Shown here: positions 6,480 through 63,216 of the stretch, piece by piece
Position numbering within the stretch: the stretch's first letter is position 1
Layout of the letters: each line of letters starts with the position of its first letter
DNA from: Malacoraja senta
Taxonomy: Eukaryota
Assembly (NCBI GenBank): GCA_038087875.1
Contig: CM075995.1
Location: 5,024,001-5,088,000, forward strand
Reading direction: 5' to 3'
DNA: 64,000 nucleotides
The notes under the pieces: model-generated
Database searches by the model: none
What the model was told of the DNA's origin: nothing
Seen by the model: the letters and a program-made list of their open reading frames with translations, nothing else
Made by a program: the position numbers and the translations under genes

Positions 6480-8045
6480 TTAGAAACATAGAAAATAGGT
6501 GCAGGAGTAGGCCATTCGGCCCTTCGAGCCATTCAATATGATCATGGCTGATCATCCAACTCAGTATCCCGTACCTGCCTTCTCTCCATATCCCCTGATC
6601 CCTTTAGACACAAGGGCCACATCTAACTCCCTCTTAAATATAGCCAATGAACTGGCCTCAACTACCTTCTGTGGCAGAAAATTCCAGAGATTCACCACTC
6701 TCTGTGTGAAAATTGTTTTTCTCATCTCGGTCCTAAAAGACTTCCCCCTTATCCTTAAACTGTGACCCCTTGTTCTGGACTTCCCCATCATCGGGAACAA
6801 TCTTCCTGCATCTAGCCTGTCCAACCCTTTAAGAATTTTGTAAGTTTCTATAAGATCCCCCCTCAATCTTCTAAATTCTAGCGAGTATAAGCCGAGTCTA
6901 TCCAGTCTTTCTTCATATGAAAGTCATGACATCCCAGGAATCAGTCTGGTGAACCTTCTCTGTACTCCCTCTATGGCAAGAATGTCTTTCCCCAGATTAG
7001 GAGACCAAAACTGTACGCAATAGTCCAGGTGTGGTCTCATCAAGACCCTGTACATCTGCAGTAGAACCTCCCTGCTCCTATACTCAAATCCTTTTGCTAT
7101 GAATGCTAACATACCATTCACTTTCTTCACTGCCTGCTGCACCTGCATGCCTACTTTCAATGTGTACCATGACACCCAGGTCTCGTTGCATCTCCCCTTT
7201 TCCTAATCTGCCACCATTCAGATAATAGTCTACTTTCCTGTTTTTGCCACCAAAGTGGATAACCTCACATTTATCCACATTATACTGCATCTGCCATGCA
7301 TTTGCCCACTCAACCCAACCTATCCAAGTCACCTTGCAGCCTCCTAGCATCCTCCTCACAGCTAACACTGCCCCCATCTTCGTGTCATCTGCAAACTTGG
7401 AGATGTTGCATTCAATTCCCTCGTCCAAATCATTAATATATATTGTAAATAGCTGGGGTCCCAGCACCGAGCCTTGCGGTACCCCACTAGTTACTGCCTG
7501 CCATTCTGAAAAGGACCCGTTTACTCCTACTCTTTGCTTCCTGTCTGCCAGCCAGTTCTCTATCCACATCAATACTGAACCCCCAATAACGTGTGCTTTA
7601 AGTTTGCATACTAATCTCTTGTGGGACCTTGTCGAAAGCCTTCTGAGAGTCCAGATATAACACATCCACTGGTTCTCCCTTATCCACTCTACTAGTTACA
7701 TCCTCGAAAAATTCTATAAGATTCGTCAGACATGATTTACCTTTCATAAATCTATGCTGACTTTGTCCAATGATTTCACCACTTTTAAAATGTGCTGCTA
7801 TCCCATTTTTAATAACTGACTCTAGCAGTTTCCCCACTACCGATGTTAGACTAACTGGTCTGTAATTCCCCGTTTTCTCTCTCCCTCCCTTTATAAAAAG
7901 TGGGGTTACATTAGCTACCCTACAATCCTCAGGAACTACTCCAGAATCTAAAGAGTTTTGAAAAATTATCACTAATGCATCAACTATTTCTGGGGCTACT
8001 TCCTTAAGTACTCTGGGATGCAGCCTATCTGGCCCTGGGGATTTG
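6480..8045 (-). mobile_element. 5'-truncated CR1/HER1-type LINE (RT)
   Basis: ORFs 7598..8188, 7084..7665 (GVPQGSVLGP, FADD), 6924..7175 and 6561..6866; same family as 35545-39643. Confidence 0.93.
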
Positions 8046-8879
8046 GGAGATTTGGGGGACAAGTTTTTTTTTTTAAAGGAGTTTAAAGGAGATTTGGGGA
8101 CAAGTTTTTTTTTAAAGGAGTTTAAAGGAGATTTGGGGGACAAGTTTAAAAAAAATGTTACACAGAGGGTGGAGGGTGCCTGGAACATGCTGCCGGGGGT
8201 GGTGGTTGAAAGTTACGTTAGTGGTATTCAAAAGACTTTAAGACAGGCATATGGATATGCAGGGAATGGAAATATATGGATTATGTATAGCAAGATAAGC
8301 AATGGTCTTGGCATCATGTTTGGCACAAACATTGTGGGCCAGAGGGCCTGTTCTTGTGCTGTACTGTTCTATGTTCTACACATGACACCTTTTTTTTCCC
8401 CAAGTACTTATCAGTTAATGCAAACTGTGACAAGGCTTGAGGGGAATATATTTAAGGATTTTGTTTTAGTTTTGGAACATTCATGGACTGCCACTTTATT
8501 TAGTTCAGTTTTAGTCTAGTTTAGCGATACAGCGCAGAAACAGGCCTTTCGGCCCACCGAGTCCACACCGACCAGTGATCCCCGCACGTTAACACCATTC
8601 TGCACACACAAGGGACAATTTACACTTAGACCAAGCCAATTAACCTACAAACCTGTAAGTTTTTGGAGTGTGAGAGGAAACCCGTGTCTCCGGCGCTGTA
8701 AGGCAGCAACTCTACCGCTGTACTGTACTGGCCCGTACTGCCACTTTATTGTTGGATCAAATGTTCTGGTTAACACCCAATATATATTTGTTGTCCGAGT
8801 TTAATACAGATTCCTTTCCCCGCGACCCCCGCCCACCTATCAAATTACAGCCACTAAGCTTGAAAGATGGTTCTTATAC

Positions 8880-17150: not shown

Positions 17151-19566
17151 TTAAATTTTTTTTTAAATATTTTTATTTTATTAGAAGTAAGTACAATTGT
17201 ATACAATCATATTTTCATAATACCTTTTATGTACAGCTTCTTATTTTTAAATTTTTTTGAAATAAAGAAGAAAAAGAAAAAAGTTAGATAATGAAAAATA
17301 GAAAAATGTGAGATATATAGTGTGTGAAAAAGAAAAATAAAGAATGAAATAAGAAAGTTGAGACATAGAAAATAGAAGAAAGAGAATAAATGAAAAGAAG
17401 AGAAGAAAAGAAAATAGAAGGAGATCATTTATAATCTTGACCATCCGCAGTCACGGATTAGCTTTTACACCTGTTTTGCACCATACGTTTCCAAAAAGAC
17501 GACAAATGGAGACCAACTCGTTATGAATTGGTCAAATTTATCTATTAGGAGGAATCGCATTTCCTCAAGATGTGCGGTATCCAACATACTTGCAATCCAC
17601 ATTTTGAGCGTTGGTATTGGTGTATTTTTCCAAAATTTCAATATTAATTTTTTTGCTATTATTAAACCATAATTAAAAATTGACTTTTGAGATGAGCTCA
17701 ATTTGTTTCCGTCTTCCATTACCCCAAATATAATCAATTCATTATTGGGTTCCATTTTTGTCTTAAATAATTTTGTAAATATTTCGAAAATATCACTCCA
17801 AAATCCATGAAGTTTTATACAAGAAACAAAAGAGTGTGTTATAGTTGCTTCTTGGATTAAACATTTATCGCAAATGGGCGATATATTTGGATAAAATTTA
17901 TTTAATCTTGTTTTTGAGTAATATAATCTATGTAAAATTTTAAATTGGATTAGATTATGTCTTGCGTTAATCGAACACTTGTGAATGTATGTCAAATACT
18001 TTTCCCATGTAGCCTTCGTAATTTTTATCAATAATTCCCGTTCCCACTCTTCTCTAATTACCTCGGTCACAGGTAAATCTATATTTAAGATACTATTATA
18101 TAAATATGCTATTAATTTTTGTGTATCAGCTTTTATATTCATTACTTCTTCTAGTAAATCAGGAGTTATTTTTTGATATCCCTGTATGTATGTCTTCAAA
18201 AAATTACAAATCTGAAAATATTTAAAATAATGAGTGTTTTTCAGTTTAAATTTTAATTGTAATTGTTGAAATGATAATAAATCTCCCATTTCATACATAT
18301 CCCCGATCCTTTTAATTCCTAAACTTTCCCATTGATTATATATTTTATCCATCATAGATGGTTTAAATAAAGGATTATTCGCTATCGGTGTTAACAATGA
18401 TAGGTTTCTTAATTTTAAGGATAGTTTTATTTGTTTCCATATTCTTATTGTATCTTGTATAATTGGGCTTTTCTTATATATTGTATTGTTCATTTTTTTC
18501 GGGGAGAAGAGGATTGTTCCTATATTACAAGGATAACAATCCTCTTTCTCCATTTTTATCCATTCTGTCTGTTGAGTTGAACTATCCAACCAGTAAATTA
18601 TATTCTTAATATGTATTGCCCAATAGTAATACAAAAAATTAGGGAGTGAAAGTCCCCCGACATCTTTTGGTTTACATAAGTGTTCTTTTTTAATTCTATG
18701 TGATTTGTAATCCCAAACAAAATTAGTAATATTAGCATTCAGTTTAGAGAAGAAATATGTTGGTACATATACTGGTATAGATTGAAATAAGTATAATAAC
18801 TGTGGTAAGAAGCTCATTTTAATAGCATTTATTCTGCCTATTAATGATAAAGGGAGTGTTTTCCAAAATTTTATCATTATATTAAGTTTATTTATTAAGG
18901 GTATAAAATTAGCATTGAATAAAGCTTTATGTTTTCTAGTAATCTGTATACCCAGATATTTGAATTTTTCTGTTGCTATTTTAAAGGGGAATTTCAATGT
19001 GTGTGGATTCTTGAGGTTTTAACGTCATAATTTCACTTTTGTTCCAATTTATTCTATATCCTGAAAAGGACCCAAATTCCTCTATTAAATTTAATAAATT
19101 TGGTATACTCGTTTGTGAATTTGTTATATATAACAAAATATCGTCTGCATACAATGAAATTTTATTATTTGAGTCCCTAGTATTATAACCCTGAATATTC
19201 GGATGGCTTCTTATACTTTCAGCCAGAGGTTCTATCATAAGGGCAAATAGCAGGGGTGATAAAGCACATCCCTGCCTATTACCCCTTGATAATTGAAATT
19301 TTTGAGATAACATGCTGTTAGTTAATATTCTTGCCATCGGTTTATCATATAATAATTTCACCCATGCAATAAAATTCTCTCCCATATTAAATTTTTGTAA
19401 TACTATGTATAAATACTGCCATTCTACCTGATCAAATGCTTTCTCTGCGTCCAAAGAAATAATTGCTAAGTCTTTTTCTTCCTTTTTATGTGAGTACATT
19501 ATATTAAACAGGCGTCTCAAATTATTAAATGAATATCTTTTGGGTATAAACCCCGTTTGATCAGGG
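17151..19566 (-). mobile_element. 5'-truncated L1-clade LINE (ORF2 RT and C-terminal CCHC, one frameshift)
   Basis: ORFs 18981..19520 (LDAEKAFD, RQGCALSPLLF, YADD) and 17465..18997 (CDKC...H....C). A-rich tail; 15-bp TSD TACAGAATTCATTTT; TTTT/AA target. Confidence 0.95.
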
Positions 19567-20965
19567 TACAGAATTCATTTTAACGGCAAATCAATGCTCT
19601 TAATATGGAGTATCAGTACTGTAGTTATTTAATGAGCAACATTCACAACTATATGTACACATATATGTTACCATGGTCCAGGATTTATTGACACAGGTTG
19701 ATCATACGATGAATAATCCAACCCCATTTTTGTTTGGAAGTGGAAAGAACTAATACAAATTGCATTAATTGCCATGTGTAAATAGAGTTGAGATACTGAC
19801 TTATAATTTTGCTGCATGTGGGATATATCATGTCTTGATTGGTGAATATGTTTAGTTTGTGATTTTATTTGAAGCAGAACTAATATGTGAATGCTTCATT
19901 GAGTATAATTCCGACTGGTAACTACGCACTTCGTCCGAGCACATTATCGCACGCATCATGCAAGCCATCTTAAATGACCACCTAAACTGTCATTTGGCAA
20001 CCTAAAAAGCTGCCAAGATTGCCCGGCTGGCAACAGGGAAAAAAAGTTAAGCGAGAGCCCTGAGAGCGCTCTATGATCTTTGGTTGCTGGCTTGGAACGA
20101 GTCAGGCAATTACAGTCAATTGTATCCTTATCTGAAGACCTGGATCGCCAATTCTTTGGCATTCCTCAGTTTCCATGAATCTCTGTTTCCAAGTATAGAA
20201 CATATCATGAGGGGCAAGAGGAAGTCAATCTATGAGCAGTTTTTTTTAAGATCGGGAGCTATTTATCTTTGTTAGAGAAAAACAAATCACAGTGGGGAAA
20301 GTGTTATTCGCTTTTCTTTCACAGATATTCATTTGCAATATAAAGTGTGACTTCTGAAATCAATGTAGATTTCAGGAAAATAGTACAATCTTGTTAATTT
20401 TCATGGTTCTGCTGTCAATGATAATCTCCCTAAGATCTTCCTGGGCTCTTGACTGCTGCTGGAAATATCAACAGCGCCATCTAGTGACCGTTTAAGAAAA
20501 CACAGAAATTGAGTTGCTTGCAACTTGAAATCTCGCTGATCACCGTACAAAGGATAAGGCACCAAAAGTTCACCTAATTTTCTGCCTATCCTACCAGTTG
20601 ATATATGATATGGTAATTGTTGCCTTATCTTTGCAATCATTTAGTTGTAACAAAGAAACTGCAGATGCTGGTTTACAAACCCCCCCCACCACAAAATGCT
20701 CGACTAACTCAGCAGATCAGGCAACATCCCTGGAGAACATGGATAGGTGATGTTTCAGATAAGGACCCTTCCTCAGACTACATTAAAAAAAACAAAGTGC
20801 TGGAATAACTCAGCGGGTCAGGCAGCATATTTGAAGGCCATAAAAAGGCACAAAGTGCTGGAGTAACTCAGCAAGTCAGGCAGCATCCCTTATCTGAAGA
20901 AGGATCCTGACCCGAAACGTCACCTATCCATGTTCTCCAGGGATGCTACCTGACCCGTTGAGTTA

Positions 20966-23411: not shown

Positions 23412-25214
23412 CTAGACTAAGTGGGACCCAGTCACAAGGGAGGCCTGGTCCCCCAACACAACCCATTCCCCAACGCAATATTCCACCACTCACCCGCTCC
23501 CCCAACGCAATATTCCACCACTCAACCGCTCCCCCAATGCAATATTCCACCACTCTCCCATAGCCTGTAACTGAGCAGGCATGACTCATTTCCCCTCATC
23601 CCCGAGCACTTCCTCCCCCTCCTCTTCATGTGTGGGAGGGGAGGGGGAGGGAAGTGGGGTGTGTGGCGGGGGGTGTGGGGGAGGTGTGTGTGGGCTGGAG
23701 GGGTGTGGGAGGGGGGGAGGAGAGATGTGGGAGGGGGGTATGTGGGAGGGTTTGTGTTTGGGAGGGGGTGTGTGTGTGGGGGGGGGTATGTGTGGAGGGG
23801 AGGGGTGTACAGGCAGAGGGGTTATGGGGGGAAGGGGTGTGTGAGCCGGGGGAGGGGTTGTGGGGGGGAGGGGTGTGTGGGGGCAGGGGGGAGTTGTGGG
23901 GGCAGGCATTGTGAGGGCGGGGGGGTTTGTGGGGGGAGAGGGGTGTGTGGGCGGTGGAGGGGGTTGTGTCGGCGGGGGGGGGGTGTGTGGGGGGGGTGTG
24001 TGTGGGGGGGATGTGGTGTGTGGGTGGAGAGGGGGTTGTAGGGGTGGGAGGTGTGGGCGGCGGAGTGTGTGGGGGGGAGGGGTGTGTTGTGTGTGGGCGG
24101 GTGGGTGTGTGGGCAGGGGGGCTTGTGGTGGGGAGGGGTGTGTGGGTGGGAGGGGTGTGTGGGGGGAGAGGGGTGTGTGGGCGGGGGGTGTTCTGGCGGG
24201 AGAGGGGTGTGAAGGCGGGTGGGGAGTGAGCTCGGAGAAAAGACGGGGAAGAGGTATGGGGGAGAGGGGGGCAGTGAAGAGGACCAGGGGGTAGTGGCTG
24301 GAATTGGCGGTCCGATGGGGACTCACAGCGGGCGCTGGTCGTTCTCCTCCACCGGGATCAGAGTCTACGCTTTTCGTTTGGCGACATCGGCGACATCTCC
24401 GACTCCGGGCCGGTCTGGGCTGGGTCTCCGACTCTGGGCTGGGCTGGGTCTCCGACTCTGGGCTGGGCTGGGTCTCCCACGTTGGGCTGGGCTGGGTCGG
24501 GTCTTCGACGCTGGGCTGCTGCTTGGGGCTGGGCTGCTGCTGCTTGGGGCTGGGCTGCTGCTGCTTGGGGCTGGGCTGCTGCTGCTTGGGGCTGGGGTGC
24601 TGCTGCTTGGGGCTGGGGTGCTGTTGCTTGGGGCTGGGGTGCTGCTGCTTGGGGCTGGGGTGCTGCTGCTTGGGGCTGGGGTGCTGCTGCTTGGGGCTGG
24701 GGTGCTGCTGCTTGGGGCGGGGTTGCTTGGGGCGGGGCTGCTTGGGGCGGGGCTGCTTGGGGCGGGGCTGCTTGGGGCGGGGCTGCTTGGGGCAGGGCTG
24801 CTTGGGGCAGGGCTGCTTGGGGCAGGGCTGCTTGGGGCTGGGCTGCTTGGGGCTGGGCTGCTTCGGGTCCCTCCGAAAGTCCGGTTGGAAAGCTCCTCCG
24901 GCTTTCCTCAGCTCCAGTAAAGAAGCGATGGTGCAGGAAGGGGCAGACCGTCCCGGGGAGTGACAGGGGAAGAGACTAATCCGCGCGGCGCTGACTGGTA
25001 GGAGAAGAGATCGATTTGCGCACGTGCGGATTTTAAAGTTTTTAATGACATTCAACCGATCGGAACGAACCTTGGTGGACTCAGAGCATAGGAGAACGGT
25101 GAGTGAACTGGCAAAAAATCGTGGCCCTATCGCAAACCGTTTTTGCGTAAATAGAAAGACCGCCAAACCGGAAGATAACAAGATCAGAGTTTTAGTTATG
25201 CATAGATAGATAGA
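23412..25214 (-). mobile_element. Non-autonomous Helitron carrying minisatellites
   Basis: Minus strand: A|TCTATCTATC 5' end, GGGACC...GGTCCC hairpin then CTAG|T 3' end. No TSD; the host CR1 rejoins at A|T. Confidence 0.82.
24515..24862. repeat. 18-bp and 15-bp GC-rich minisatellite arrays
   Basis: (GCTGCTTGGGGCTGGGST)n followed by (GCTGCTTGGGGCDGG)n. Confidence 0.95.
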
Positions 25215-27992: not shown

Positions 27993-28714
27993 GGATTACG
28001 TGAAGAAGAAGAGTCCATCCAGCCGCACACGCGTCAATCTTCAAGGCAGCGGAGTGAAATCACAGACGACAATTACTGAAGTATGATAGTAAGATAAATA
28101 AAGACTAGAACTACCAGCTCGATCTTTTATGAGGGTGGGAGCGGAGGGCACGTAATCCCTCAACGTAACTCCTCATAAAATAAAGATCAAACCTCAAACT
28201 GGTAAGTTCTCGTTTAATCTTACTATTTTACTTCGGAGTCACGTGAGTGACTACGTGAAGATTTCAAAGCTCTGTGATTTCAGGCCGTAGATTCAATCCA
28301 GGCGCTCACTGCATTGATTGACTCTAAATAAGTAAAATAATCAACAATGCACAACCACAACATGGATGCAACCAGTTAATGGTTAATTTATCACCAGAAT
28401 AGTAACCCCTTTATCACAAGAGGAATATTTAATACTAAATCCCAAAATAACACCACCAAATAACTACAGGTATTATAATCTCCTTATGGTAATAGGTGAA
28501 TTCTTTCACTTATGCCTGCAGCCACGAGGATATGTTTTATTAGAACATCCAATTCCTTGGCCGTCAAACTTGATGGTGCCCTGGTGAAATAAGATTAAAA
28601 TTTGTCAGTATCCATACCTGCATCAAGAAACACATGCTTTAGCCATTTTTAAAATAGTCTAAACCGACACTTTCCTATGCAGCTATTTATGGCTAATAAA
28701 ATACTCGTACTGAA

Positions 28715-29864
28715 CCTCCTTGACCTCACTATCTCCATCGCAGGTGATAGACTCCTTACCGACATCCACTACAAACCTACCGACTCCCATGGCTATCTGG
28801 ACTACACTTCTTCCCACCCTGCTTCCTGTAAGGACTCCATCCCCCACTCCCAATTCCTCCGTCTATGCCGCATCTGCTCCCAGGATGAGGCGTTCCACAC
28901 CAGGGCATCTGAAATGTCCTCATTCTTCAGGGAACGGGGGTCCCCCTCCTCCACCATAGATGAGGCTCGCACCAGGGTCTCTGCCATACCCCGCAACACT
29001 GCTCTCTCTCCCCATCCCCCCACTCACAACAAGGGCAGAGTCTCCCTAGTCCTCACCTTTCACCCCACCAGCCATCACATACAACAAGTGATCCACCGTC
29101 AGTTTCGCCACCTCCAACGTGACCCCACCACTCGCCACATCTTCCCATCTCCCCCCATGTCTGCCTTCCGCAAAGACCGCTCCCTCCGTAACTCCCTTGT
29201 CAATTCTTCCCTTCCCTCCCATACCACCCCCTCCCCTGGTACTTTCCCTTGCAACCGCAAGAGATGCAACACTTGTCCCTTCACCTCCCCCCTCTACTCC
29301 ATTCAAGGACCCAAGCAGTCGTTCCAGGTGCGACAGAGGTTCACCTGCATCTCCTCCAACCTCATCTATTGCATTCGCTGCTCTAGATGCCAGCTGATCT
29401 ACATCGGTGAGACCAAGCGGAGGCTTGGCGATCGTTTCGCCGAACACCTCCGGTCGGTCCGCAATAACCAACCTGAACTCCCGGTGGCTCAGCATTTGAA
29501 CTCCCCCTCCCATTCCGTATCTGACCTCTCTGTCCTGGGTCTCCTCCATGGCCACAGCGAGCAACACCGTAAATTGGAGGAAATGCACCTCATATTCCGC
29601 TTGGGCAGTCTACATCCTGGGGGCTTGAACATTGAATTCTCCCAATTCTGCTAGCCCTTGCTGTCCCCTCCCCTTCATCAGCCACCTGGTTGTCTCCTCC
29701 CCTCCCCCAGCCCTCGGGCTCCTCCTCCGCCTTTTTCCTTTTTTCCTTTCTTCTCCCCACCCCCTATCAGTCTGAAGAAGGGTTTCGGCCCGAAACGTTA
29801 CCTATTTCCTTCGCTCCATAGATGCTGCTGCACCCGCTGAGTTTCTCCAGCATTTTTGTGTACC
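28715..29864 (+). mobile_element. 5'-truncated Penelope-like element (RT thumb, Cys linker, GIY-YIG endonuclease, pLTR), inserted in the DIRS YR
   Basis: ORF 28677..29654 has KPTD..YLDYTSSHP, CNRKRCNTC and IYCIRCSRCQLIYIGET...RFAEH...GLN, followed by a pLTR with a hammerhead-like core. Confidence 0.92.
29772..29800 (+). ncRNA. Minimal hammerhead-like core in a Penelope pLTR (representative copy)
   Basis: CUGAAGA-A-GGGU(UUCG)GCCC-GAAA-CGUUA. Confidence 0.55.
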
Positions 29865-35544: not shown

Positions 35545-38500
35545 AGAAACATAGAAACATAGAAAATAGGTGCAGGAGTAGGCCATTCGGCCCTTCGAGC
35601 CTGCACCGCCATTCAATATGATCATGGCTGATCATCCAACTCAGTATCCTGTACCTGCCTTCTCTCCATACCCCCTGATTTGCACTTTTCTATATTGCAC
35701 CTTTTATTATTGCACCTTAATAACATACCTCAAAATTTTACTACACTCTGGCACACTGTGAATATTTTATATAATGTTTATGTCCATTGTCTATCTTTAT
35801 TGGTATATTGTCTGTCTGTTATAAATATTACTTGCACATTGGAGTATGGGGAAACGCAATTTCAATCCTCTGTGTAACTACTTGTTGCATTATTTGAATT
35901 CACAATAAAGTTTACTTTGACTTTGACTTTGATCCCTTTAGCCACAAGGGTCACATCTAACTCCCTCTTAAATATAGCCAATGAACTGGCCTCAACTACC
36001 TTCTGTGGCAGAGAGTTCCAGAGATTCACCACTCTCTGTGTGAAAAATGTTTTTCTCATCTCGGTCCTAAAGGATTTCCCCTTAATCCTTAAACTGTGAC
36101 CCCTTGTCCTGGACTTCCCCAACATCGGGAACAATCTTCCTGCATCTAGCCTGTCCAACCCCTTAAGAATTTTGTAAGTTTCTATAAGATCCCCCCTCAA
36201 TCTTCTAAATTCTAGCGAGTACAAGCCGAGTCTATCCAGTCTTTCTTCATATGAAAGTCCTGACATCCCAGGAATCAATCTGGTGAACCTTCTCTGTACT
36301 CCCTCTATGGCAAGAATGTCTTTCCTCAGATCTCTCTCTCTTTCTCTTTCTCTTTCTCTCTCTCTCTCTCTCTTTTTCTCTTTCTTTCTCTCTCTCCAAA
36401 ACTGTACGCAATACTCCAGGTGTGGTCTCACCAAGACTGCAGTAGAACCTCCCTGCTCCTATACTCAAATCCTTTTGCTATGAATGCTAACATACCATTC
36501 GCTTTCTTCACTGCCTGCTGCACCTGCATGCCTACTTTCAAGTAGGCATGAAGAAGGGTTTCTGCCCGAAACGTTGCCTATTTCCTTCGCTCCAAAGATG
36601 CTGCTGCACCCGCTGAGTTTCTCCAGCATTTCTGTGTACCTGCCTACTTTCAATGACTGGTGTACCATGACACCCAGGTCTCGTTGTATCTCCCCTTTTC
36701 CTAATCGGCCACCATTTAGATAATAGTCTACTTTCCTGTTTTTGCCACCAAAGTGGATAACCTCACATGTATCCACATTATACTGCATCTGCCATGCATT
36801 TGCCCACTCACCCAGCCTATCCAAGTCACCTTGCAGCATCCTAGCATCCTCCTCACAGCTAACACTGCCCCCCAGCTTCGTGTCATCTGCAAACTTGGAG
36901 ATGTTGTATTCAATTCCCTCGTCCAAATCATTAATATATATTGTAAATAGCTGGGGTCCCAGCACTGAGCCTTGCAGTACCCCACTAGTCACTGCCTGCC
37001 ATTCTGAAAAGTACCCATTTACTCCTACTCTTTGCTTCCTGTTTGCCAGCCAGTTCTCTATCCACATCAATACTGAACCCCCAATACCGTGTGCTTCAAG
37101 TTTGTATACTAATCTCTTATGTGGGACCTTCTCGAAAGCCTTCTGATAGTCCAGATATAACACATCCACTGGTTCTCCCTTATCCACTCTACTAGTTACA
37201 TCCTCAAAAAATTCTATAAGATTCGTCAGACATGATTTACATTTCGTAAATCCATGCTGACTTTGTCCAATGATTTCACCACTTTCCAAATGTGCTGCTA
37301 TCCCATCTTTAATAACTGACTCTAGCAGTTTGCCCACTACCGATGTTAGACTAACTGGTCTGTAATTCCCCTTTTCTCTCTCCCTCCCTTTTTAAAAAGG
37401 GGGTTACATTAGCTACCCTCCAATCCTCAGGAACTACTCCAGAATCTAAGGAGTTTTGAAAAATTATCACTAATGCATCCACTATTTCTGGGGCTACTTC
37501 CTTAAGTACTCTGGGATGCAGCCTATCTGGCCCTGGGGATTTATCGGCCTTTAATCCATTCAATTTACATAACACCACTTCCCGGCTCACCTGGATTTCA
37601 CTCAGTTCCTCTATCTCATTTGACCCGCGGTCCCCTGCTATTTCCGGCAGATTATTTATGTCTTCCTTAGTGAAGACAGAATCAAAGTACTTATTCAATT
37701 GGTCTGCCATGTCCTTGTTCCCCATGATCAATTCACCTGTTTCTGACTGCAAGGGACGTACATTTGTTTTAACTAATCTCTTTCTCTTCACATATCTATA
37801 AAAACGTTTGCAGTCAGTTTTTATGTTCCCTGCCAGTTTTCTTTCATAATCTAATCCATAATCCTCTGCTGGTCTCTGAATTTCTCCCAGTCCTCTGGTA
37901 GGCTGCTTTTTCTGGCTAATTTGTACGCTTCATCTTTTGTTTTGATACTATCCCTGATTTCCCTTGTTATACACGGATGCACTACCTTCCCTGATTTAAT
38001 CTTTTGCCAAACTGGGATGAACATTTTTTGTAGTTCATCCATGCAGTCTTTAAATGCCTTCCATTGCATATCCACCGTCAACCCTTTAAGAATCAATTGC
38101 CAGTCAATCTTAGCCAATTCACGTTTCATACCCTCAATGTTACCTTTCTTTAAGTTCAGAACCCTTGTTTCTGAATTAACAATGTCACTCTCCATCCTAA
38201 TGAAGAACTCAACCATATTATGATCACTCTTGCCCAAGGGGCCACGCACAACAAGACTGCTAACTAACCCTTCCTCATTACTCAATACCCAGTCTAGAAT
38301 AGCCTGCTCTCTCGTTGGTTCCTCTACATGTTGGTTTAGAAAACTATCCCGCATACATTCCAAGAAATCCTCTTCCATAGCACCCCTGCCAACTTGATTC
38401 ACCCAATCTATATGTAGATTGAAGTCACCCATTATAACTGTTTTACCTTTGTTGTACGCATTTCTAATTTCCTGTTTGATGCCATCCCCAACTCCACTAC

Positions 38501-39643
38501 TACTGTTAGGTGGCCTGTACACAACACCCACTAGCGTTTTCTGCCCCTTAGTGTTTCGTAGCTCTACCCATATCGATTCCACATCCTCCAAGCTAATATC
38601 CTTCCTTTCCATTGCGTTAATCTCCTCTCTAACCAGCAACGCTACCCCACCTCCTTTTCCTTTCTGTCTATCCCTCCTGAATATTGAATATCCCTGGATG
38701 TTCAGCTCCCAGCCTTGGTCACCCTGGAGCCATGTCTCCGTGATCCCAACTATATCATAATCATTAATAGCCATCTGCACATTCAACTCATCCACCTTAT
38801 TACGAATGCTCCTTGCATTGAGACACAAAGCCTTCTGGCTTGTTTTTACAACGCTCTTACCCCTTATACAATTATGTTGAAAAGTGGTCCTTTTTGATTT
38901 TTGCCCAGGATTTGTCTGCCTGCCACGTTTACTTTTCACCTTGTTACCTATTGCTTCTACCCTCATTTTATACCCCTCTGTCTCTCTGCTCACACATTTA
39001 AGAAACCCACTTATTCTCAGTTTATTATTTTTTTCTTCTTTCCCCCCTACCTGTTGGGTCTGAGTGCTTCCCTTCTCTGCCTCCTGCCTCCCACACTGTC
39101 TACAAGCTTTCTCTATTTGAGTCCCTCCCCCTAACCGTTCTAGTTTAAAGTCTCCCCTGTAGCCTTTGCAAATCTCCCCGCCAGGATATTGGTCCCCCTC
39201 GGGTTCAAGTGCAACCCATCCTTTTTGTACAGGTCACACCTTCCCCAAAAGAGGTCCCAATGATCCAGAAACTTGAATCCCTGCCCCCTGCACCAGTCCT
39301 TCAGCCACGCATTTATCCTCCACCTCGCTTCATTCCTACTCTCACTGTCGCGTGGCACAGGCAGTAATCCCGAGATTGTTACCTTTGCGGTCATTCTCCT
39401 TAACTCTCCTCCTAACTCCCTAAATTCTCCTTTCAGGACCTCTTCCCTTTTTCTACTTATGTCATTGATACCTTTCTGTACCACGACCTCAGGCTCCTCT
39501 CCCTCCCATTTCAGGATATCTTGGACACGTTCAGACACATCCCGGACCCTGGCACCAGGGAGGCAAACTACCATCCGGGTCTCCTGACTGCATCCACAGA
39601 ATCGCCTATCTGACCCCCTAACTATAGAAGGGGGTCCAACTAT
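35545..39643 (-). mobile_element. Near-complete CR1/HER1-type LINE: partial ORF1 SGNH esterase plus ORF2 APE endonuclease and RT, frameshifted
   Basis: ORFs 39140..39574 (CLPGARV...DGLHLN), 37851..38993 (NARS, ITETW, MGDFN, SDH), 37351..37791, 36465..37337 (QGSVLGP, FADD) and 35862..36434; (TTTCTATG)n tail. It splits a plus-strand CR1 at AGAAT. Confidence 0.93.
36542..36640 (+). mobile_element. Solo Penelope pLTR fragment in the CR1 RT
   Basis: 13-bp TSD TGCCTACTTTCAA; sequence nearly identical to 29773-29864. Confidence 0.85.
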
Positions 39644-40514
39644 AGAATGGAGCAGCTGGGCTTGTACACTCTGGAGTTTAGAAGGATGAGAGGGAATCTC
39701 ATTGAAACATATAAGATTGTTAAGGGCTTGGACACGCTAGAGGCAGGAAACATGTTCCTGATGTTGTGGGAGTCCAGAACCAGGGGCCAGTTTAAGAATA
39801 AGGAGTAAGCCATTTAGAACGGAGACGAGGAAACACTTTTTCTCACAGAGAGTGGTGGGTCTGTGGAATTCTCTGCTCATAGGGCGGTGGAGGCAGGTTC
39901 TCTGAATGCTTTCAAGAGAGAGCTGGGTAGGGCTCTTAAAAATAGTGGAGTCAGGGGATATGGGGAGAAGGCAGGAACGGGTTACTGATTTTGGATGATC
40001 AGCCATGATCACATTGAATGGCGGTGCTGGCTCGAAGGGCCAAATGGCCTACTCCTGCACCTATTTTCTATTGTTTATTGTCTATTGTCCAGCGCTGAAG
40101 TAGCAGTGGCAGAGAGAGGGATTTTCTACATGAACACATTAACCATTGGATATAGATCCTCCTCCCCAGGTTACAACGAGGTTCTGTTCCTGAGAACGGT
40201 TCATAACATTAGCTGGAATTTTCCCACATTGAAGCCAAGTAGTATACAGAAACATGGAACTGCAGATGCCGGTTTACAAAAAAAGACACAAAGTGCTGGA
40301 GTAACTCAGCTGGTCAGGCAGCCTCCCTGGAGAACATGCACAGGTGACGTTTCGTGTTGGGACTGAAGAAGGGTCCAGACCCAAAATGTCACCTGTCCGT
40401 GTTCCCCAGAGATGCTGCCTAACCCGCTGAGTTACTCCAGCACTTTGTGTCTTCCCCACCCCCCCAAAGAATAATACATTCTAGTTGATGACAATTTTGC
40501 AAATTTCCTATAGT

Positions 40515-43679: not shown

Positions 43680-46582
43680 GATGCGGACGCCGACGTGGCA
43701 CATAACACGATGTGTTATATCGGCATCATAGTCCCGGACGCGGCCATTCAGCTAGCCGGGGTTAGCCTCACACCGAGCCGACAGAGACCCATCACTGTGC
43801 GGTAAGACTCGAGGTGGTGGCCTGTGTGTTTACATCAACACTGACTGGTGCAACAACTCTGTCTTAGTCTCCAAGTTCTGTTCATCGCTGGTGGAGTACG
43901 TGATTGTGAGATGTATTTGCCACGGGAGTTTACCACCGTGCTGATTGTAGCTGTTTACATCCCCCCAGTGCTAATGCTAAGGAAGCACTAGCTGTACGGA
44001 GCTATATGCAATCTACTAAACACACACCCAGAAGGACTGTTTATCGTCGCAGGAGATTTCAACCATGCGAATCTCAAAACTGTGCTTCCTAAATTTTACC
44101 AACATGTGGACTTTGCGACGAGACGGGAGAACTTACTAGATCTTGTTTACACCAATATGCCCGGCGCGTACAGGGCGGAGCCCCGCCCCCACCTCGGATA
44201 TTCAGACCACATCTCTGTCATGCTGATCCCAGCATACAGACTGCTTGTGAGACGCTCCAGACCAGCTAAGAAACAGGTGAAGAACTGGCCAGCAGGAGCC
44301 ATCTCTGCTCTCCAGGACTGTTTTGAGTGCACTGACAGGCACATGTTTAGGGAGGCAGCAACCACTGGCGGCACCACTGACTTGGAGGAGTACACGGCAT
44401 CAGTGACTGGTTACATCAGTAAGTGCATTGATGACGTCACCAAGCTCATCACCACATGCCCCAACCGTAAGCCATGGATGACTGCAGAGGTACGTGCGCT
44501 GCTGAGAGCCCGACACATGGCCTTCAGAGCAGGCGATAAGGAGGCCCTGAGAACAGCGAGGGCCAAACTGTCCTGGGCCATCAGAGAAGCAAAGCGAGCG
44601 CATGCCTGGAAAATCCACGGCCACTTCAGTGACAGCGGGGACACACGGCAGCTGTGGCAAGGCATCCAAGCCATCACCAACTACAGGACATCAACACCAG
44701 CCTGTGACAGCGATGCCTCTCTGCCTGATGCGCTGAACGTGTTCTACACCCGGTTTGAAGCACAGAACGACTTGGTGGCGAGGAAGACCACCTACCCTCC
44801 CGACGACCAGGTGCTATGTCTGACCACAGCTGATGTGAAAAAATCACTGCGCAGAGTCAACCCGTGTAAGGCTGTTGGCCCAGACAATATCCCCGGTAGA
44901 GTGCTCAAAGGGTGTGCAGACCAGCTGGCAGATGTTCTCACAGACATCTTCAATATCTCCCTGAGCAGCGCCACCGTCCCAACGTGCTTCAAAACCACCA
45001 CCATTGTTCCTGTGCCCAAGAAGTCACCTGTGTCCTGCCTCAATGACTACTGCCCCGTCGCACTCACCCCCACCATCATGAAGTGCTTCGAGAGGCTGGT
45101 CTTGAGGCACATAAAGACCCTCCTGTCCCCCGCCCTTGACCCCCTGCAGTTTGCGTATCGATCCAACCGCTCCACCGATGACGCCATCACCACCGCCACC
45201 TAGCACTCACCCACCTGGACAAAAAGGACACATACGCCCGAATGCTGTTCATAGACTTCAGTTCAGCATTCAATACTATCATCCCCCAGCACCTGACCAG
45301 GAAGCTGAGCCTGCTGGGCCTGAATACCTCCCTCTGCAACTGGATCCTGGACGTCCTGACGGGGAGACCCCAGACCGTCCGGATCTGGAGCAACAAACAC
45401 CTCCAGCACCACCACACTGAGCACAGGCCCCCCCCCCCCCCCCAGGGCTGTGTGCTCAGTCCATTGCTGTTCACACTGTTGACTCACGACTGCACAGCGC
45501 TGCACAGCTCGAATCACATCATCAAGTTCGCCAATGACACGACCCTGGTGGGTCCCATCTACAAGAACGACGAGTCAGCATACAGAGAGGAGGTGAAACA
45601 ACTGACAACTTGGTGCAAAGTCAACAACCTGTCTCTGAACGTAGACAAAACCAAAGAGATGGTTGTTGACCTTAGGAGAGCACAGAGGGACCATGCGCCA
45701 CTGGACATCGACAGCTCCCCAGTGGAGATTGTGAAGAACACTAAATTCCTTGCTGTCCACCTGGCGGAGAAGTTAACCTGGTCCCTCCACACCGGCTCCA
45801 CTGTGATGAAAGCCCAGCAGCGTCTCCACTTCCTGAGGAAGCTGAGGAAGGCCCACCTCCCGCCCACCTCCCGCCCCCCATCCTCACCACATTCTACAGA
45901 GGGACTAGAGCGAGCATCATGAGTAGCTGCATCACTGCCTGGTTTGGAAACTGCACCAGCTTGGACTGCAAGAACCTGCAGCGAGTAATGAGGACAGCCG
46001 AAAAGATAATCGGAGTCTCTCTCCCCCCCCCCCCCCCCCCCCCCCCCCCATCTCAGACATCTACACCACACACTGCATCCGCAAAGCAACCAGCATTGCG
46101 GAGGACCCCACCCACCCCTCATATAAATTTTTCTCCCCCCTCCCATCTGGCAGAAGGTACCAAAGCATACGGTCCCTCACATCCAGATTATGCAACAGCT
46201 TCTTCCCCCAGGCCATCCGACTCCGGGACAGATCTGAATACACACACACCCCCGACCGCCCCCACCCCCCCCCCCCATCTCTGCTGCTACATAAACTCTG
46301 CACTGCCCCCTTGGCACACTTGGTTTGTGTACATTGCACTCTGTTGCACTGTTGTCTACTGTCCTGCGTTGCTGTTTTGTACATTTTCTACTTACTTTGT
46401 TGCACTTTAGTAAGGAAGCTTTTGCACCATGTGTATAGCGTAGTTTATCTATATATGTAGCATGTTGTCCAATTGTGTTCTATGTAGCACCAAGGTTCCA
46501 GGGAAACGCTATCTCATTGCACTGTGTACTGTGTATACGGCTGTAATGACAATAAACCCTCTTGAATCTTGAATCTTGAATC
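43680..46582 (+). mobile_element. Rex1/Babar-type LINE, frameshifted ORF2 (EN-RT)
   Basis: ORFs 44082..45203 ([21 protein letters not shown]) and 45242..45922 ([20 protein letters not shown]); AATAAA plus (CTTGAAT)n tail. Confidence 0.85.
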
Positions 46583-58003: not shown

Positions 58004-58751
58004 CTCATTGTGCCGTCACAATTCCACCCTCTGTGACGCCGTGGACGTGAACGCGCCTTGTGCGTTTCTCTTTGAAACACCATTCCAGCACAGATTTGCA
58101 AAAAAAATGTGTTGAATGGGGATATATGCCTGCAATCACTCGCTCCTCAGATTGGTACGGGTGCTAAGGGTCATGGGAGGAAGGCAAGAGAATGGGGTTA
58201 ATAAGAGATAGATCAGGACTGGTTTGGAGGGATATGGACCAAATGCTGGCAGGTGGGAGTAGTGTAGCTGGGCCATGTTGGCCGGTGTGGACCAAAGGGC
58301 CCGTTTCCACACTGTATCGCTCTATGATTCTATCAGCCATGATTGAATGGCTGAGTGGAGTTGATGGGCCGAATGGTCTAATTCTGTTCCTATCACTTAT
58401 GACCTTATGAGCCTTGGAAACAATTCAGTCATAGAGTGTTGCAGCGTTGAGTAATTGCAGGATGTGCTTTCTGCAGGATACACTGCAGTGACTTGTCAAG
58501 GGTTCTTCAACAGCATCCTCCAAGTAGGACACAAAGTGCTGGAGTAACACAGCACATCAGGTAGCATCTCTGGAGATGATGGGTAGGTGATGTTTCGGAT
58601 TGAGATCCTTCTTCCTTGTGTCCACATAGTCTTACAGTGTGGAAGCAGGCCCTTCGGCCCAATTTTCCCACACTAGCCATCATGTCCCATGTACACTAGT
58701 CCCACCTGCTTGCATTTGCACATATCCCTCTAAACCTGTCCTATCCATATA

Positions 58752-59603
58752 CCGGATTGGACTGATCCAGGATGGGGAGGAATCTGCCTACAGACAGGAA
58801 GTGTCACAGCTGGCGTCCTGGTGCCGTCGCAACAACCTAGAGCTCAATGCTCTTAAGACAGTGGAATTGATTGTAGACTTTAGGAGAGCTCCCCCTCCCC
58901 TCACCATCAACAACACCACAGTCACATCTGTGGAGATTTTTAAGTTCCTGGGAACCATCATCTCCAAGGACCTTAAGTGGGGGGCTACCATCGACTCCAC
59001 AGTCAAAAAGGCACAACAGAGGATGTATTTCCTACGGCAGCTGAGGAAGCACAATCTGCCACAGGCAATGATGGTCCAATTCTACACGGCCATCGTAGAG
59101 TCTGTTCTCACCTTCTCCATCATGGTCTGGTTTGGCTCAGCCACCAAGCACGACACCTGGAAGCTGCAGCGAATCGTCCGATCAGCAGAGTAGGTTATTG
59201 GCTGCAACCTTCCCTCCATTGATGAACTGTACACTGCAAGGGCCAGGAAGCGAGCGGGCAAGATCATCTCCGACCCCTCTCACCCTGGCCACAAACTCTT
59301 TGAATCACTTCCCTCTGGAAGGCGACTCCGGATTGTCAAAGCTGCCACAGCCAGACATAAAAACAGTTTTTATCCACGGGTAGCTGCTCTACTCAACAGC
59401 CAAAAATCTGTAGCCTCCCTTTGATTTGGTATTTTGTTGGTTCACATGCTTGATCAATGGTGTTTTATCATTAATGTTTTATTATTATTAATGTTTAGTG
59501 TTTTCTGAGTCATTTGTAACTGTCACTGTATGTCAAGTTGTTACTTGTGGGCGGAGCACCAAGGCAAATTCCTTGTATGTGAATACTTGGCCAATAAACT
59601 TAC
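58752..59603 (+). mobile_element. Rex/Babar-type LINE 3' fragment
   Basis: ORF 58639..59193 (NNLELNALKTVELIVDFR, KKAQQRMYFLRQL). Confidence 0.8.
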
Positions 59604-59743
59604 CTGTCTAAATGTTTCTTGTCTAAATGCGATACTACCTGCCTCAACTACCTTCCCTAGCAGCTCATTTCACTCAGAGGAATAACCATATAGACACTGT
59701 AAATCCAGACATTTTTAGTAGAATAAAGATCATTGCAATAGGT

Positions 59744-59880
59744 CTTCTTCTTGCGTATGGCGTGCACAGCCTAAAGTTGTAGGACACCTGTTCTATTTGA
59801 TCTTATTTGATTGTGCACTCCGGGATGATTGCATTCGTTGAAACAGGGCGGACCACGTGAAGGTTGCAATCTCCCACCCC
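59744..59880 (-). mobile_element. ~137-nt short retroposon with a 5' HDV-like ribozyme head and (AAG)n tail, copy 1
   Basis: TSD ATTGCAATA (59732-59740 / 59881-59889). Near-identical to 63082-63216, with the same 5' end. Confidence 0.8.
59827..59880 (-). ncRNA. Putative minimal HDV-like (CPEB3-type) self-cleaving ribozyme
   Basis: GGGGUGG-GA-GAUUGCA-ACC-UUCACGU-GGU-CCGCCCU-GU-UUCAA-CGAA-UGCAAUC. P1 is 7 bp with G1.U, P2 7 bp, P3 3 bp, L3 7 nt, J4/2 CGAA. Confidence 0.8.
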
Positions 59881-61135: not shown

Positions 61136-63081
61136 TTTAGTGTATGCCTTAAGGTACCAGGGGAAAATAAAGAATGATTTCAAGTGTATATTATCACCTC
61201 AGTTTTGAAGTTAACCATTTAAGCTGCTTAAACTTTATTCTCAGTGAGATTCCTTTGATGATTGCACTTGAGAAGTGTCGGTTGAAAACTAAGAGTAAAA
61301 TAGTTTAAAAATATGAAGCTGTATTTATTTTCATGCACATTGTCCTGAGTGTAGGTGGGTGGCAGGAGAACTGGAGGTGGGAGGTGTTGATGGATGCGTG
61401 AAGGAGATTTAATTACAGGGAAATAAATAGGAGAATAGGCTGATGGAAAACACTCTAAGATTCAACATAGACTCAATAGTGTCTTTCTATATTGTCTGAA
61501 AATATGATTACAAAAATTGAAAAATTGAGTAATATCAAAAGAGTGAACAGATACAGCCGCAAACATTCTGCAGTTAAAAACTGAGGATGAATATTTAAAT
61601 GAACTGGTTTAAAGGTTATAAAATAGAAAAAAATAGAATTATACTTCAAAGTTTAAGCTTCTGCATTGAACACATTGTACAGTTTCGCCTCTGGGATTAT
61701 CAACAGTGTGAATACTGTTTGATGTGGGGTTTTTTTGGTAAGTACTTGTGTGATTGAAGCTGGGATGTGATGCAAAGAGTGGGCCTTTGATGTGGGCTCA
61801 GTAATTAAATGTATTCATTTGTGGTTAACAGGGATTGGTGGAGAAACTTGAAAAGGATGAAATAGAAAAACATATTGACATCTGGAATATAACAGCAAAG
61901 AAATGAATCACATTGAATGCGAACAGGCTACAGAGAGCAATTATAACAGAAGGAGGAAAATTATTAAAATGAAAGTCCATTTTTAAATAAGGTCATCAGA
62001 TTCACCACCATGTGTAGGATGAACGAAAGAACTGGGGAGAATGATTGAAATTGTATGTGGATTAACAGCCACATTGGAAAATTGTTGGAATAGCACAGGA
62101 ACTCATCCTAAACGTTAAAGATAACAGAGGGGTTTGTAACATTCAATGAAATGCAATCATTGCAATACATACGCCTTCTGTACCTATTATTGTTTAGGTA
62201 ACTTTGGGTGGTTATGTTTTGCACAAAATGCAGCACCATAAATATTATTTTGAAATTGCAACTCTTCACAGATTTTGCAAACAACAATTTATTTAGGATA
62301 CCTTGGCGTTGACTCTTCTAATTATATAAATGTTGGAAATAATTATGTGGGCTTAAGTAATTCAATTGAACTGAATCCATGGTCACCTGTTGTACAATTG
62401 TTCAATTTGGGCAGATTTCCAAACATGATTGCTTTAGACTCTTACAAGATAGAAGAGCGCTATTTAGCTCATTGCACCTGCTTTAGTTTACAAAGGGCTT
62501 AGTTATTGGTCCCACAATCCATGTCTTTAAATTTTGTTTTCAAATATCAATTCACCTCTTTTGGATGGTATTATCAATTCAGCATCTAATATTGTAGGCA
62601 ATTGATCTAACAACCATCCATAATAAAAAAAATCTTAACCTTACCCTTCATAATTCTTAAATTTAAGCCCTACCATTTGAGCTACAACAATCAATTAAAA
62701 AAAATTTTTTTTTTAGTTTTATTCTTATCATTTTAAACAGCTAAATTAGTTATTTTAATAATCTTCTTAACCGATAAAATGAGATCAAATTGTTCAATTC
62801 TCTTCTCATAACTGAAATCTATTCATCCCATGTATTGTTTCAATGAACATCTATGACACTCTATCCGTAGCCTAGACCTCTTTTCTGATGGACAAAGCTA
62901 AAAATTTGACGCAACATGCTAACAGCTGCCAAATCCTGGGTTGACTTTCTAAATGCTTACTCTTTAAAAGAAAAAAAGGGAAGACCACATAATTCTTTTA
63001 ATAAAGCTTCATTGACTAGTCCGATCACTTTTGAAGATTTGAATTTCAAATTCTCACCATGCCTCTATTGTCCCTGGAGTT

Positions 63082-63216
63082 CTTCTTGCATATGGAGTGC
63101 ACAGCCTAAAGTTGTAGGACAATTTGTTCTATTTGATCTTATTTGATTGTGCACGCCAGGTTGATTGCATTAGTTGAAACAGGGCGGACCACGTGAAGGT
63201 TGCAATCTCCCACCCC
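63082..63216 (-). mobile_element. ~135-nt short retroposon with a 5' HDV-like ribozyme head, copy 2
   Basis: TSD TCCCTGGAGTT / TCCCTTGAGTT (63071-63081 / 63217-63227, one mismatch). Same 5' G as copy 1. Confidence 0.8.
63163..63216 (-). ncRNA. Putative minimal HDV-like ribozyme, copy 2
   Basis: Identical 54-nt fold to 59827-59880 except that J4/2 is CUAA. Confidence 0.8.

What the first reader, a model, noticed from the sequence alone, without database searches (positions are those of the whole stretch)
59827..59880. Minimal 54-nt HDV/CPEB3-like self-cleaving ribozyme forming the exact 5' end of a short retroposon
Seen: the minus strand reads GGGGUGG GA GAUUGCA ACC UUCACGU GGU CCGCCCU GU UUCAA CGAA UGCAAUC. 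This gives a 7-bp P1 opening with a G1.U wobble, a perfect 7-bp P2, a 3-bp P3 with a 7-nt L3, a single C-G P1.1 next to U.U, no real P4 (5-nt linker), and a J4/2 CGAA containing the catalytic-C position. G1 is exactly the first base inside the target-site duplication. Known: this is the HDV nested double pseudoknot. As I recall it, the mammalian CPEB3 ribozyme has the same L3 (UUCACGU), the same GU after P1 and the same CGAA. HDV-like ribozymes process the 5' ends of R2, ingi/L1Tc and RTE-type retroelements. Inference: this is a ribozyme-headed SINE that cuts itself out of read-through transcripts instead of using a tRNA-type Pol III promoter. I do not recall one described from cartilaginous fish.
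Basis: partly seen in the sequence, partly recalled or inferred. Interest (0 to 1): 0.88.

Follow-up and report, generated by a model that had tools for sequence, protein, structure and literature searches.

The report
Ribozyme-headed mini-retroposon, CPEB3 kin
A 137-base jumping element with thousands of copies starts with a probable self-cutting RNA inherited from its parent retrotransposon, and sister retrotransposons in the same genome start with close matches to the mammalian CPEB3 ribozyme, which points to where that brain-gene ribozyme came from.

Summary
The fold is real as described. It heads a 137-nt element with an (AAG)n tail and target-site duplications; 4,944 places match its 19-nt core exactly. 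It is not a Pol III SINE. Its first 81 and last 39 nt are the two ends of a ~3-kb single-ORF APE-RT LINE without RNase H (Vingi-like) in the same genome, so it is a SIDE/NARTc-type internal-deletion derivative. In 40 unselected copies, 37 start at nt 1-2, and 25 of 29 duplications end exactly before G1. Heads of six other families align without gaps through P1-P3 and show compensatory changes. Cleavage is untested. The head lacks P4, and an AUG overlapping J4/2-P2 is in frame with the parent ORF. The larger lead: the Rfam mammalian CPEB3 model passes its cut-off at 39 of 60 listed places here, many being exact 5' ends of a second Vingi-like LINE. A crocodilian Vingi 5' end printed in a paper supplement matches the CPEB3 consensus at 38 of 40 positions. 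The CPEB3 ribozyme is probably an exapted Vingi 5' end; I found no paper saying so.

The parts
59744..59880 (-). Short non-autonomous element, 137 nt including the (AAG)3 tail
59827..59880 (-). P4-less HDV-like ribozyme fold; predicted cut 5' of G1 = 59880
   Evidence: activity not tested
59874..59880 (-). P1 5' strand, pairs with 59851-59845
59865..59871 (-). P2 5' strand, pairs with 59833-59827
59852..59864 (-). P3 and L3; C22 (59859) forms P1.1 with G37 (59844)
   Evidence: P1.1 C-G in 16 of 16 aligned heads
59834..59837 (-). J4/2; C44 = 59837 at the catalytic-cytosine position
   Evidence: role from HDV-like literature (PMC10879173, PMC9901934 passages)
59832..59834 (-). AUG overlapping J4/2 and P2; in frame with the APE domain in the parent LINE, 13 codons then a stop in the short element
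   Evidence: use as start codon not tested
59800..59880 (-). nt 1-81: derived from the 5' end of the Vingi-like LINE A
   Evidence: L113, L107, L124
59783..59799 (-). nt 82-98: junction filler, partly a repeat of the preceding sequence
   Evidence: origin inferred
59744..59782 (-). nt 99-137: identical to the 3' end of LINE A (end of ORF, 3' UTR, AAG tail)
   Evidence: 39 of 39 with L110
59881..59892 (-). Target-site duplication, upstream copy (12 bp, 1 mismatch)
59732..59743 (-). Target-site duplication, downstream copy
63080..63216 (-). Second full copy of the family, 93% identical, J4/2 variant with U at nt 45, 11-bp duplication with 1 mismatch

Best explanation
The element is a short internally deleted derivative of a Vingi-like LINE. 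The LINE's 5' end folds co-transcriptionally into a P4-less HDV-like ribozyme that cuts 5' of G1 (C44 as the catalytic cytosine, Mg2+-dependent), trimming upstream host RNA to a unit-length transcript with a 5'-OH. The LINE protein (APE + RT) recognises the shared 39-nt 3' end and copies the RNA into new sites by target-primed reverse transcription, giving 8-13-bp duplications that end at G1. The short element kept only these two cis parts and far outnumbers its parent. Shown: anatomy, shared ends, 5' end clustering, compensatory pairing. Inferred: cleavage, dependence on read-through transcription, mobilisation by LINE A, use of the embedded AUG.
For: Parent found: a 3'-motif search gave L093, an RT LINE with the same tail; of 30 LINE loci fetched, L107, L113 and L124 carry the head in sense at their 5' end and run on into APE; L113 is flanked by a duplication; L122 is a separate internal deletion that breaks after the same nt ~81. 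Unselected copies (first 40 of 4,944 core matches): start at nt 1 in 31, nt 2 in 6, nt 3, 5, 6 in one each; 38 of 40 have the tail; 29 of 38 a duplication (mismatched-pair control 12 of 1,406); 25 of 29 end exactly before G1. Copies chosen on the 3' end only: 25 of 30 have the whole head from nt 1-3, 5 lack it, one being the LINE. In DNA runs of three other organisms the commonest loose 5' end lies at the head's start (379, 390, 377 contigs against at most 51 at other listed 5' places; 325 rows not shown). 16 heads of 7 families: 92.4% of cells paired (shuffles 72.5 +/- 1.6; slid controls 36-50%), 60 double-change cells (17.2 +/- 3.3), 6 of 7 P2 pairs and 2 of 3 P3 pairs with double changes, P1.1 invariant. 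The frequent variants among the 40 copies (nt 8, 32, 42, 45) keep all pairs and C44. Precedent: SIDE ribozymes self-cleave (PMC3414825 passages), NARTc head cleaves before +1 (PMC3383444 passages), P4-less HDV-like ribozymes are active (PMC10879173 passages).
Against: No cleavage assay and no informative RNA data: the one RNA run laid gave a single contig. The head is far below every Rfam cut-off. Two of five whole-structure measures did not beat shuffles (pairs with a double change 11 vs 9.4; pair types 25 vs 25.8), the rows are related, and G1.U was unpaired in 7 of 16 rows. The nested MFE extends P2 at the expense of P1 in both copies folded, so a misfold may slow cleavage. The LINE A frames printed for 7 copies are all broken, copies are 86-92% alike and their head is the A32/U45 variant, so present mobility is doubtful. 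The C44T deficit (243 vs 460 for G45A, p 2e-16) is weak support: by eye in the first 100 rows C44T (4) is near the rate at the L3 CpG (8 and 6), and one G45A subfamily could explain the gap.
Confidence: 0.8

Rival explanations
1. Dual element as in L1Tc/NARTc: the same first ~80 nt are an internal Pol II promoter that starts at G1, and the ribozyme is a back-up that trims read-through RNA. G1 clustering would then partly reflect transcription start.
For: Pr77/L1TcRz has both functions in the sister Ingi clade (PMC3383444, abstract and passages). The short element keeps 27 nt of LINE sequence beyond the fold. Copies are dispersed on both strands.
Against: No promoter evidence was obtained; compensatory pairing needs an RNA function. 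Not exclusive with the best explanation.
Confidence: 0.3
2. The P4-less head is a poorly cleaving or dead ribozyme whose fold is kept for other work: shielding the 5' end, presenting the embedded AUG for cap-independent translation, or binding the LINE protein for second-strand synthesis.
For: AUG in J4/2-P2 in frame in 3 of 3 LINE A 5' ends and in the unrelated element L141; competing fold; in sister family F position 1 comes from the flank or P1 is 6 bp; protective and IRES-like roles are described for R2 and L1Tc heads (PMC6765202, PMC13708176 passages).
Against: The catalytic-position C is in 15 of 16 aligned heads and 38 of 40 copies; the short element has no ORF to translate yet keeps the core; G1 coincides with the 5' end.
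Confidence: 0.13
3. A conventional Pol III SINE whose head only resembles a ribozyme.
For: Short, high copy, LINE-derived tail; nt 37-45 loosely recall a B box (my recall of the motif, no call).
Against: No tRNA gene found, no Rfam small-RNA match; the head is the LINE's own 5' end; covariation fits the HDV fold.
Confidence: 0.04

Closest known systems
R2 SIDEs and R2/R1 hybrid SIDEs of Drosophila (Eickbush and Eickbush 2012, PMC3414825; abstract and passages read)
   Same: 5' HDV-like ribozyme plus 3' end of the parent LINE, no ORF, not Pol III
   Different: APE-type Vingi-like parent, dispersed insertion with thousands of copies, 54-nt P4-less head instead of a large ribozyme, only 137 nt
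NARTc/L1Tc and RIME/ingi of trypanosomes (PMC3383444 abstract and passages; PMC4035085 two passages)
   Same: Bipartite short partner sharing about 77 nt of 5' end and 30 nt of 3' end with an APE-RT LINE; cut before +1; sister clade
   Different: Parent has no RNase H; animal host; no P4; AUG inside the ribozyme; promoter function untested here
Vingi non-autonomous derivatives and Vingi-derived SINE parts (Kojima 2018, PMC5786205; passages and one supplement passage read)
   Same: Vingi is one of four clades named there as producing bipartite derivatives
   Different: [quoted passage not shown]
Minimal HDV-like and theta ribozymes (Kienbeck 2024, PMC10879173; passages read)
   Same: P4 absent, catalytic C first in J4/2
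   Different: Those are nearly all from bacteriophages, next to tRNAs; this one heads an animal retroelement and has a single C-G P1.1
Mammalian CPEB3 ribozyme, Rfam RF00622 (consensus as printed; PMC8233481 and PMC9901934 passages)
   Same: Ungapped register through P1-P3, same L3, single C-G P1.1 with U.U, same J4/2
   Different: The window head has different P1, P2, P3 letters and no P4 and does not score on the model; its sister families do

Membership tests
HDV-like ribozymes | Nested double pseudoknot P1, P2, P3, P1.1 | tested here: met
HDV-like ribozymes | 7-bp P1 opening with G1.U at the cut site | tested here: met
   G at nt 1 in 33 of 40 copies by fixed-offset count
HDV-like ribozymes | Cytosine at the first position of J4/2 | tested here: met
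   C44; 38 of 40 copies, 15 of 16 heads
HDV-like ribozymes | Pairings supported by compensatory change | tested here: met
   three of five measures beat all 500 shuffles, two did not; rows related
HDV-like ribozymes | Reaches the cut-off of an Rfam HDV-type model | tested here: not met
   14.4 bits against 44 for RF02682; none at gathering; the models contain P4
HDV-like ribozymes | Mg2+-dependent self-cleavage lost on C-to-U change | not testable with these tools
   needs an in vitro assay
SIDE / bipartite non-autonomous LINE | 5' end shared with an autonomous LINE | tested here: met
   nt 2-81 align to L113 with 7 differences
SIDE / bipartite non-autonomous LINE | 3' end shared with the same LINE | tested here: met
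   39 of 39 nt with L110
SIDE / bipartite non-autonomous LINE | No ORF; TPRT marks (tail, target-site duplications) | tested here: met
SIDE / bipartite non-autonomous LINE | Mobilised in trans by the LINE protein | not testable with these tools
   inferred from the shared 3' end
Pol III SINE | Head derived from tRNA, 7SL or 5S RNA | tested here: not met
   head is the LINE 5' end
Vingi clade (parent LINE A) | Compact single ORF with APE and RT | tested here: met
   closest intact relative P0001, 1,019 aa, 71%
Vingi clade (parent LINE A) | No RNase H domain (PMC13708176 passage) | tested here: met
   no RNase H hit in LINE A pieces, P0001 or LINE B
Vingi clade (parent LINE A) | RT groups with labelled Vingi references | tested here: inconclusive
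   No labelled Vingi protein was available. A and B fall in one group apart from the window's CR1/L2- and L1-like RTs; B sits with a multicopy Anolis protein (P0179, unlabelled); long outgroup branches, one misplaced
RF00622 CPEB3 ribozyme | Score above 35 bits: window head | tested here: not met
   no RF00622 match at E <= 10
RF00622 CPEB3 ribozyme | Score above 35 bits: heads of sister families | tested here: met
   39 of 60 listed places, best 64.2 bits, 0 of 14 control genomes over cut-off; L159 55.6 bits

The most novel reading that the evidence does not exclude
HDV-like ribozymes are the standard 5' end of one large branch of Vingi retrotransposons. The mammalian CPEB3 intronic ribozyme is an exapted 5' end of such an element, fixed before the marsupial-placental split, and the families here supply the missing outgroups. 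The window element is a P4-less member of the same lineage, an animal counterpart of the phage minimal ribozymes, whose catalytic strand also carries the start codon of the parent ORF.
Probability: 0.7. Interest if true: 0.88.

Novelty: new variant of a known kind. Interest (0 to 1): 0.78.

Why it matters
The design (ribozyme head plus LINE tail) is known. Three things go beyond it. [quoted passage not shown] Here dozens of loci pass its Rfam cut-off as 5' ends of Vingi-like elements, one old family shares even its P4 stem, and a crocodilian Vingi matches it nearly letter for letter. This makes its origin directly testable. (2) Minimal P4-less HDV-like ribozymes were reported almost only from phages (PMC10879173); two such families occur here, one with thousands of natural variants for activity mapping. 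(3) Vingi-1 from Anolis is used as a gene-writing tool with its native 5' UTR (PMC13708176); a self-cleaving head would bear on template design. Whether that element has such a head I did not test.

Tried and rejected
Rfam at gathering on the window: nothing. Thermodynamic folding: uninformative for a pseudoknot, favours another hairpin. tRNA head: none. Window LINE fragments as partner: 18 of 56 long frames scanned; they are L1/Tx1-, Penelope-, CR1/L2- and Rex1-like by domain content (labels are my recall), none shares the element's ends. A pattern for a different continuation after nt 74 found 8 places, all short-element variants. Rfam e-value scan of 15 Vingi-like loci found no ribozyme family, including L141, L113 and L107 where the fold is present, so Rfam misses ACC/GGU-type heads. 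The descriptor hit 6 of 80 metagenome loci: 4 upstream of the ORF (L141, L159, L160, L162; the last three one element), 2 judged chance (L176, L202); L130, L131 and L132, which reach the ORF start, had no hit, so the head is not shown to be universal. Family D search found 5 places and no LINE continuation. Expression: no raw RNA reads offered; X20 gave one contig. CpG asymmetry kept only as weak support. Literature: 10 searches; CPEB3 + Vingi gave one false hit (Tvingi); one search was swamped by fish papers and says little. Not held: Kojima 2011 (Vingi), Ruminski 2011, Webb 2009; these, Repbase/Dfam, patents and subscription papers may already contain Vingi heads under other names. bioRxiv supplements were not seen. 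PMC6326823 gave no passage. L141 could not be placed in the tree (no single frame recovered).

Full report
Observation. The 54 nt at 59880-59827 (minus strand) form the stated P1, P2, P3, L3, P1.1 and J4/2. They open a 137-nt element ending in (AAG)3, flanked by a 12-bp duplication with one mismatch. A second copy lies at 63216-63080. A descriptor search finds only these two sites in the window, against 0 of 60 (strict) and 1 of 60 (loose) shuffles. Rfam does not recognise the head: nothing at gathering, and 14.4 bits on the F. prausnitzii HDV model over exactly these coordinates. The nested MFE is another hairpin, z 0.58.

The family. A DNA search gave 2,546 candidates, the best 40 about 96% identical; a 19-nt core matches exactly at 4,944 places, control 0. 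To avoid selecting on the 5' end I took the first 40 core matches: the head aligns from nt 1 in 31, nt 2 in 6, and nt 3, 5, 6 in one each; 38 have the tail; 29 of those 38 have a duplication of 8-13 bp (control 12 of 1,406 mismatched pairs), and 25 of the 29 end exactly before G1. Among the 30 fetched of 67 copies selected on the 3' end only, 25 have the whole head; 5 lack it, one of them a LINE. DNA runs of three other organisms show their commonest loose 5' end at the start of the head; the element is held by runs of seven coded organisms.

The parent. L093 carries the same tail behind an RT frame and a C-terminal cysteine-histidine motif. Searching with it gave 126 candidates; 30 loci were fetched. 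L107, L113 and L124 begin with the same head and run into an APE domain; most copies end in the same 39 nt. The short element is LINE nt 1-81, a 17-nt filler and the LINE's last 39 nt. The LINE is about 3 kb with one frame, APE + RT and no RNase H hit; its closest intact relative is 1,019 aa and 71% identical. PMC13708176 (passages) defines Vingi as compact, single-ORF, APE-type and lacking RNase H, and PMC5786205 (passages) names Vingi among four clades that make bipartite derivatives. A tree without labelled references is only compatible with this, so I write Vingi-like. The frames printed for 7 copies are all broken. The AUG at nt 47-49, made by the last A of J4/2 and the first two bases of P2, is in frame with APE in 3 of 3 LINE 5' ends and in L141, an element from a metagenome with 39% identity to P0001, the same P3 and a full P4. 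In LINE B the AUG lies downstream of the ribozyme, and 2 of 3 LINE A copies have a second Met 20 codons on, so use of this AUG is open.

Structure across families. The supplement of PMC5786205 prints nt 2-74 of crocodilian Vingi-2_Gav, which by eye had the CPEB3 layout. Searching this genome with Rfam RF00622 gave 39 of 60 listed places over the cut-off, best 64.2 bits; only 59 of 102,231 candidates were scored, and none of 14 control genomes passed. Of the 20 best loci, 12 are the 5' end of a second, young LINE (B; about 97% alike; 10 of 12 continue into the ORF), 3 family C, 3 family D, 2 family E. B copies are about 3.15 kb with one APE-RT frame, an AAG tail and duplications, no RNase H, and relatives in lancelet, sea urchin, insects, teleosts and Anolis. 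Of 20 further loci (15 over the cut-off, 5 under), 12 are a ~170-nt family F with tail and duplications that is P4-less with the same 5-nt linker layout as the window head but a CPEB3-type P3; one family C copy continues into an APE-RT frame. Sixteen heads from seven families align without gaps through P1-P3. 92.4% of cells pair (shuffles 72.5; slid 36-50), with 60 double-change cells (shuffles 17.2) and covariation 0.60 (0.21); P1.1 is invariant. Two measures did not exceed shuffles, the rows are related, and G1.U is unpaired in 7 of 16. Within the family the common variants fall at nt 8, 32, 42 and 45 and spare the pairs and C44. C44T is rarer than G45A genome-wide (243 vs 460), but this is weak support, as set out under evidence against.

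Mechanism. Shown: a conserved HDV-type fold whose G1 is the 5' end of both LINE and short element. Inferred from tested relatives (SIDEs, PMC3414825; L1Tc/NARTc, PMC3383444; minimal ribozymes, PMC10879173; all read as passages): cleavage before G1 releases a unit RNA from longer transcripts, and the LINE protein copies it through the shared 3' end. A promoter in the same stretch is not excluded. No RNA evidence was obtained.

CPEB3. By eye, Vingi-2_Gav equals the Rfam consensus at 38 of 40 positions from nt 2 and at the last 14. The alligator SINE part printed beside it and family D here share the 7-bp P4 stem of CPEB3 in their majority sequence; P4 letters differ freely among families B, C, E and L159, so shared P4 letters favour descent over convergence. 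L159, from a metagenome, scores 55.6 bits about 200 nt upstream of the start of its protein match and groups with LINE B. [quoted passage not shown] PMC7761336 (passages) suggests domestication of such ribozymes in general without naming a donor. Not shown: any element remnant at the mammalian locus, which I could not search; family D has no LINE continuation in 5 copies. The window head itself is a more distant cousin and does not score on RF00622.

Novelty. New as far as ten searches of the held library show: a ribozyme at Vingi 5' ends, P4-less heads on an animal retroelement, and the Vingi-CPEB3 link. Webb 2009, Ruminski 2011 and Kojima 2011 were not held and may cover some of these heads under other names; Repbase, Dfam and patents were not searchable. 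Verdict: real feature, new variant of a known kind, interest 0.78, carried mostly by the CPEB3 lead.

Noticed in passing
L210-L249 (G000), e.g. L251 201-3330 +, L238 418-590 +, L221 1501-1568 -: At least five more families (B-F) and one single copy (L246) of CPEB3-model-matching heads; B is a young full-length Vingi-like LINE with long open frames.
   Followed up: partly
L230-L248 family F: Copies begin with four G, so the first P1 position comes from the insertion site, and 4 of 12 have one C fewer in the P1 3' strand (6-bp P1); effect on cleavage unknown.
   Followed up: no
L054 about 1940-2260 -: A ~320-nt element with a short duplication and (AAGT)n tail begins with an HDV-like P1/P3/L3 in which position 1 is C and the P1.1 pair is reversed; its sequence recalls an RTE 5' UTR (my recall). 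P2 is not convincing.
   Followed up: partly
L099 4071-4161, L103, L106, L114, L121, L126, L127: Many LINE A copies carry the head inverted at their 5' junction, as twin priming would give.
   Followed up: no
L131 420-500 +: A Vingi-like element without a descriptor hit has a G-rich 5' stretch that may be a longer HDV-like variant.
   Followed up: no
L051, L052: Two paralogous loci where the head is followed by unrelated sequence after nt 59.
   Followed up: no
window 17465-19574 -, 28653-29654 +, 35862-39736 -, 45182-45922 +, 58630-59193 +, 7084-8212 -: Fragments of other retroelements: RT with zf-RVT, GIY-YIG, GDSL esterase + APE + RT, RT with ALKBH8_N.
   Followed up: no
window 24452-24882 and 23739-24199: 21-nt and 15-nt tandem arrays and a G-rich low-complexity tract.
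   Followed up: no
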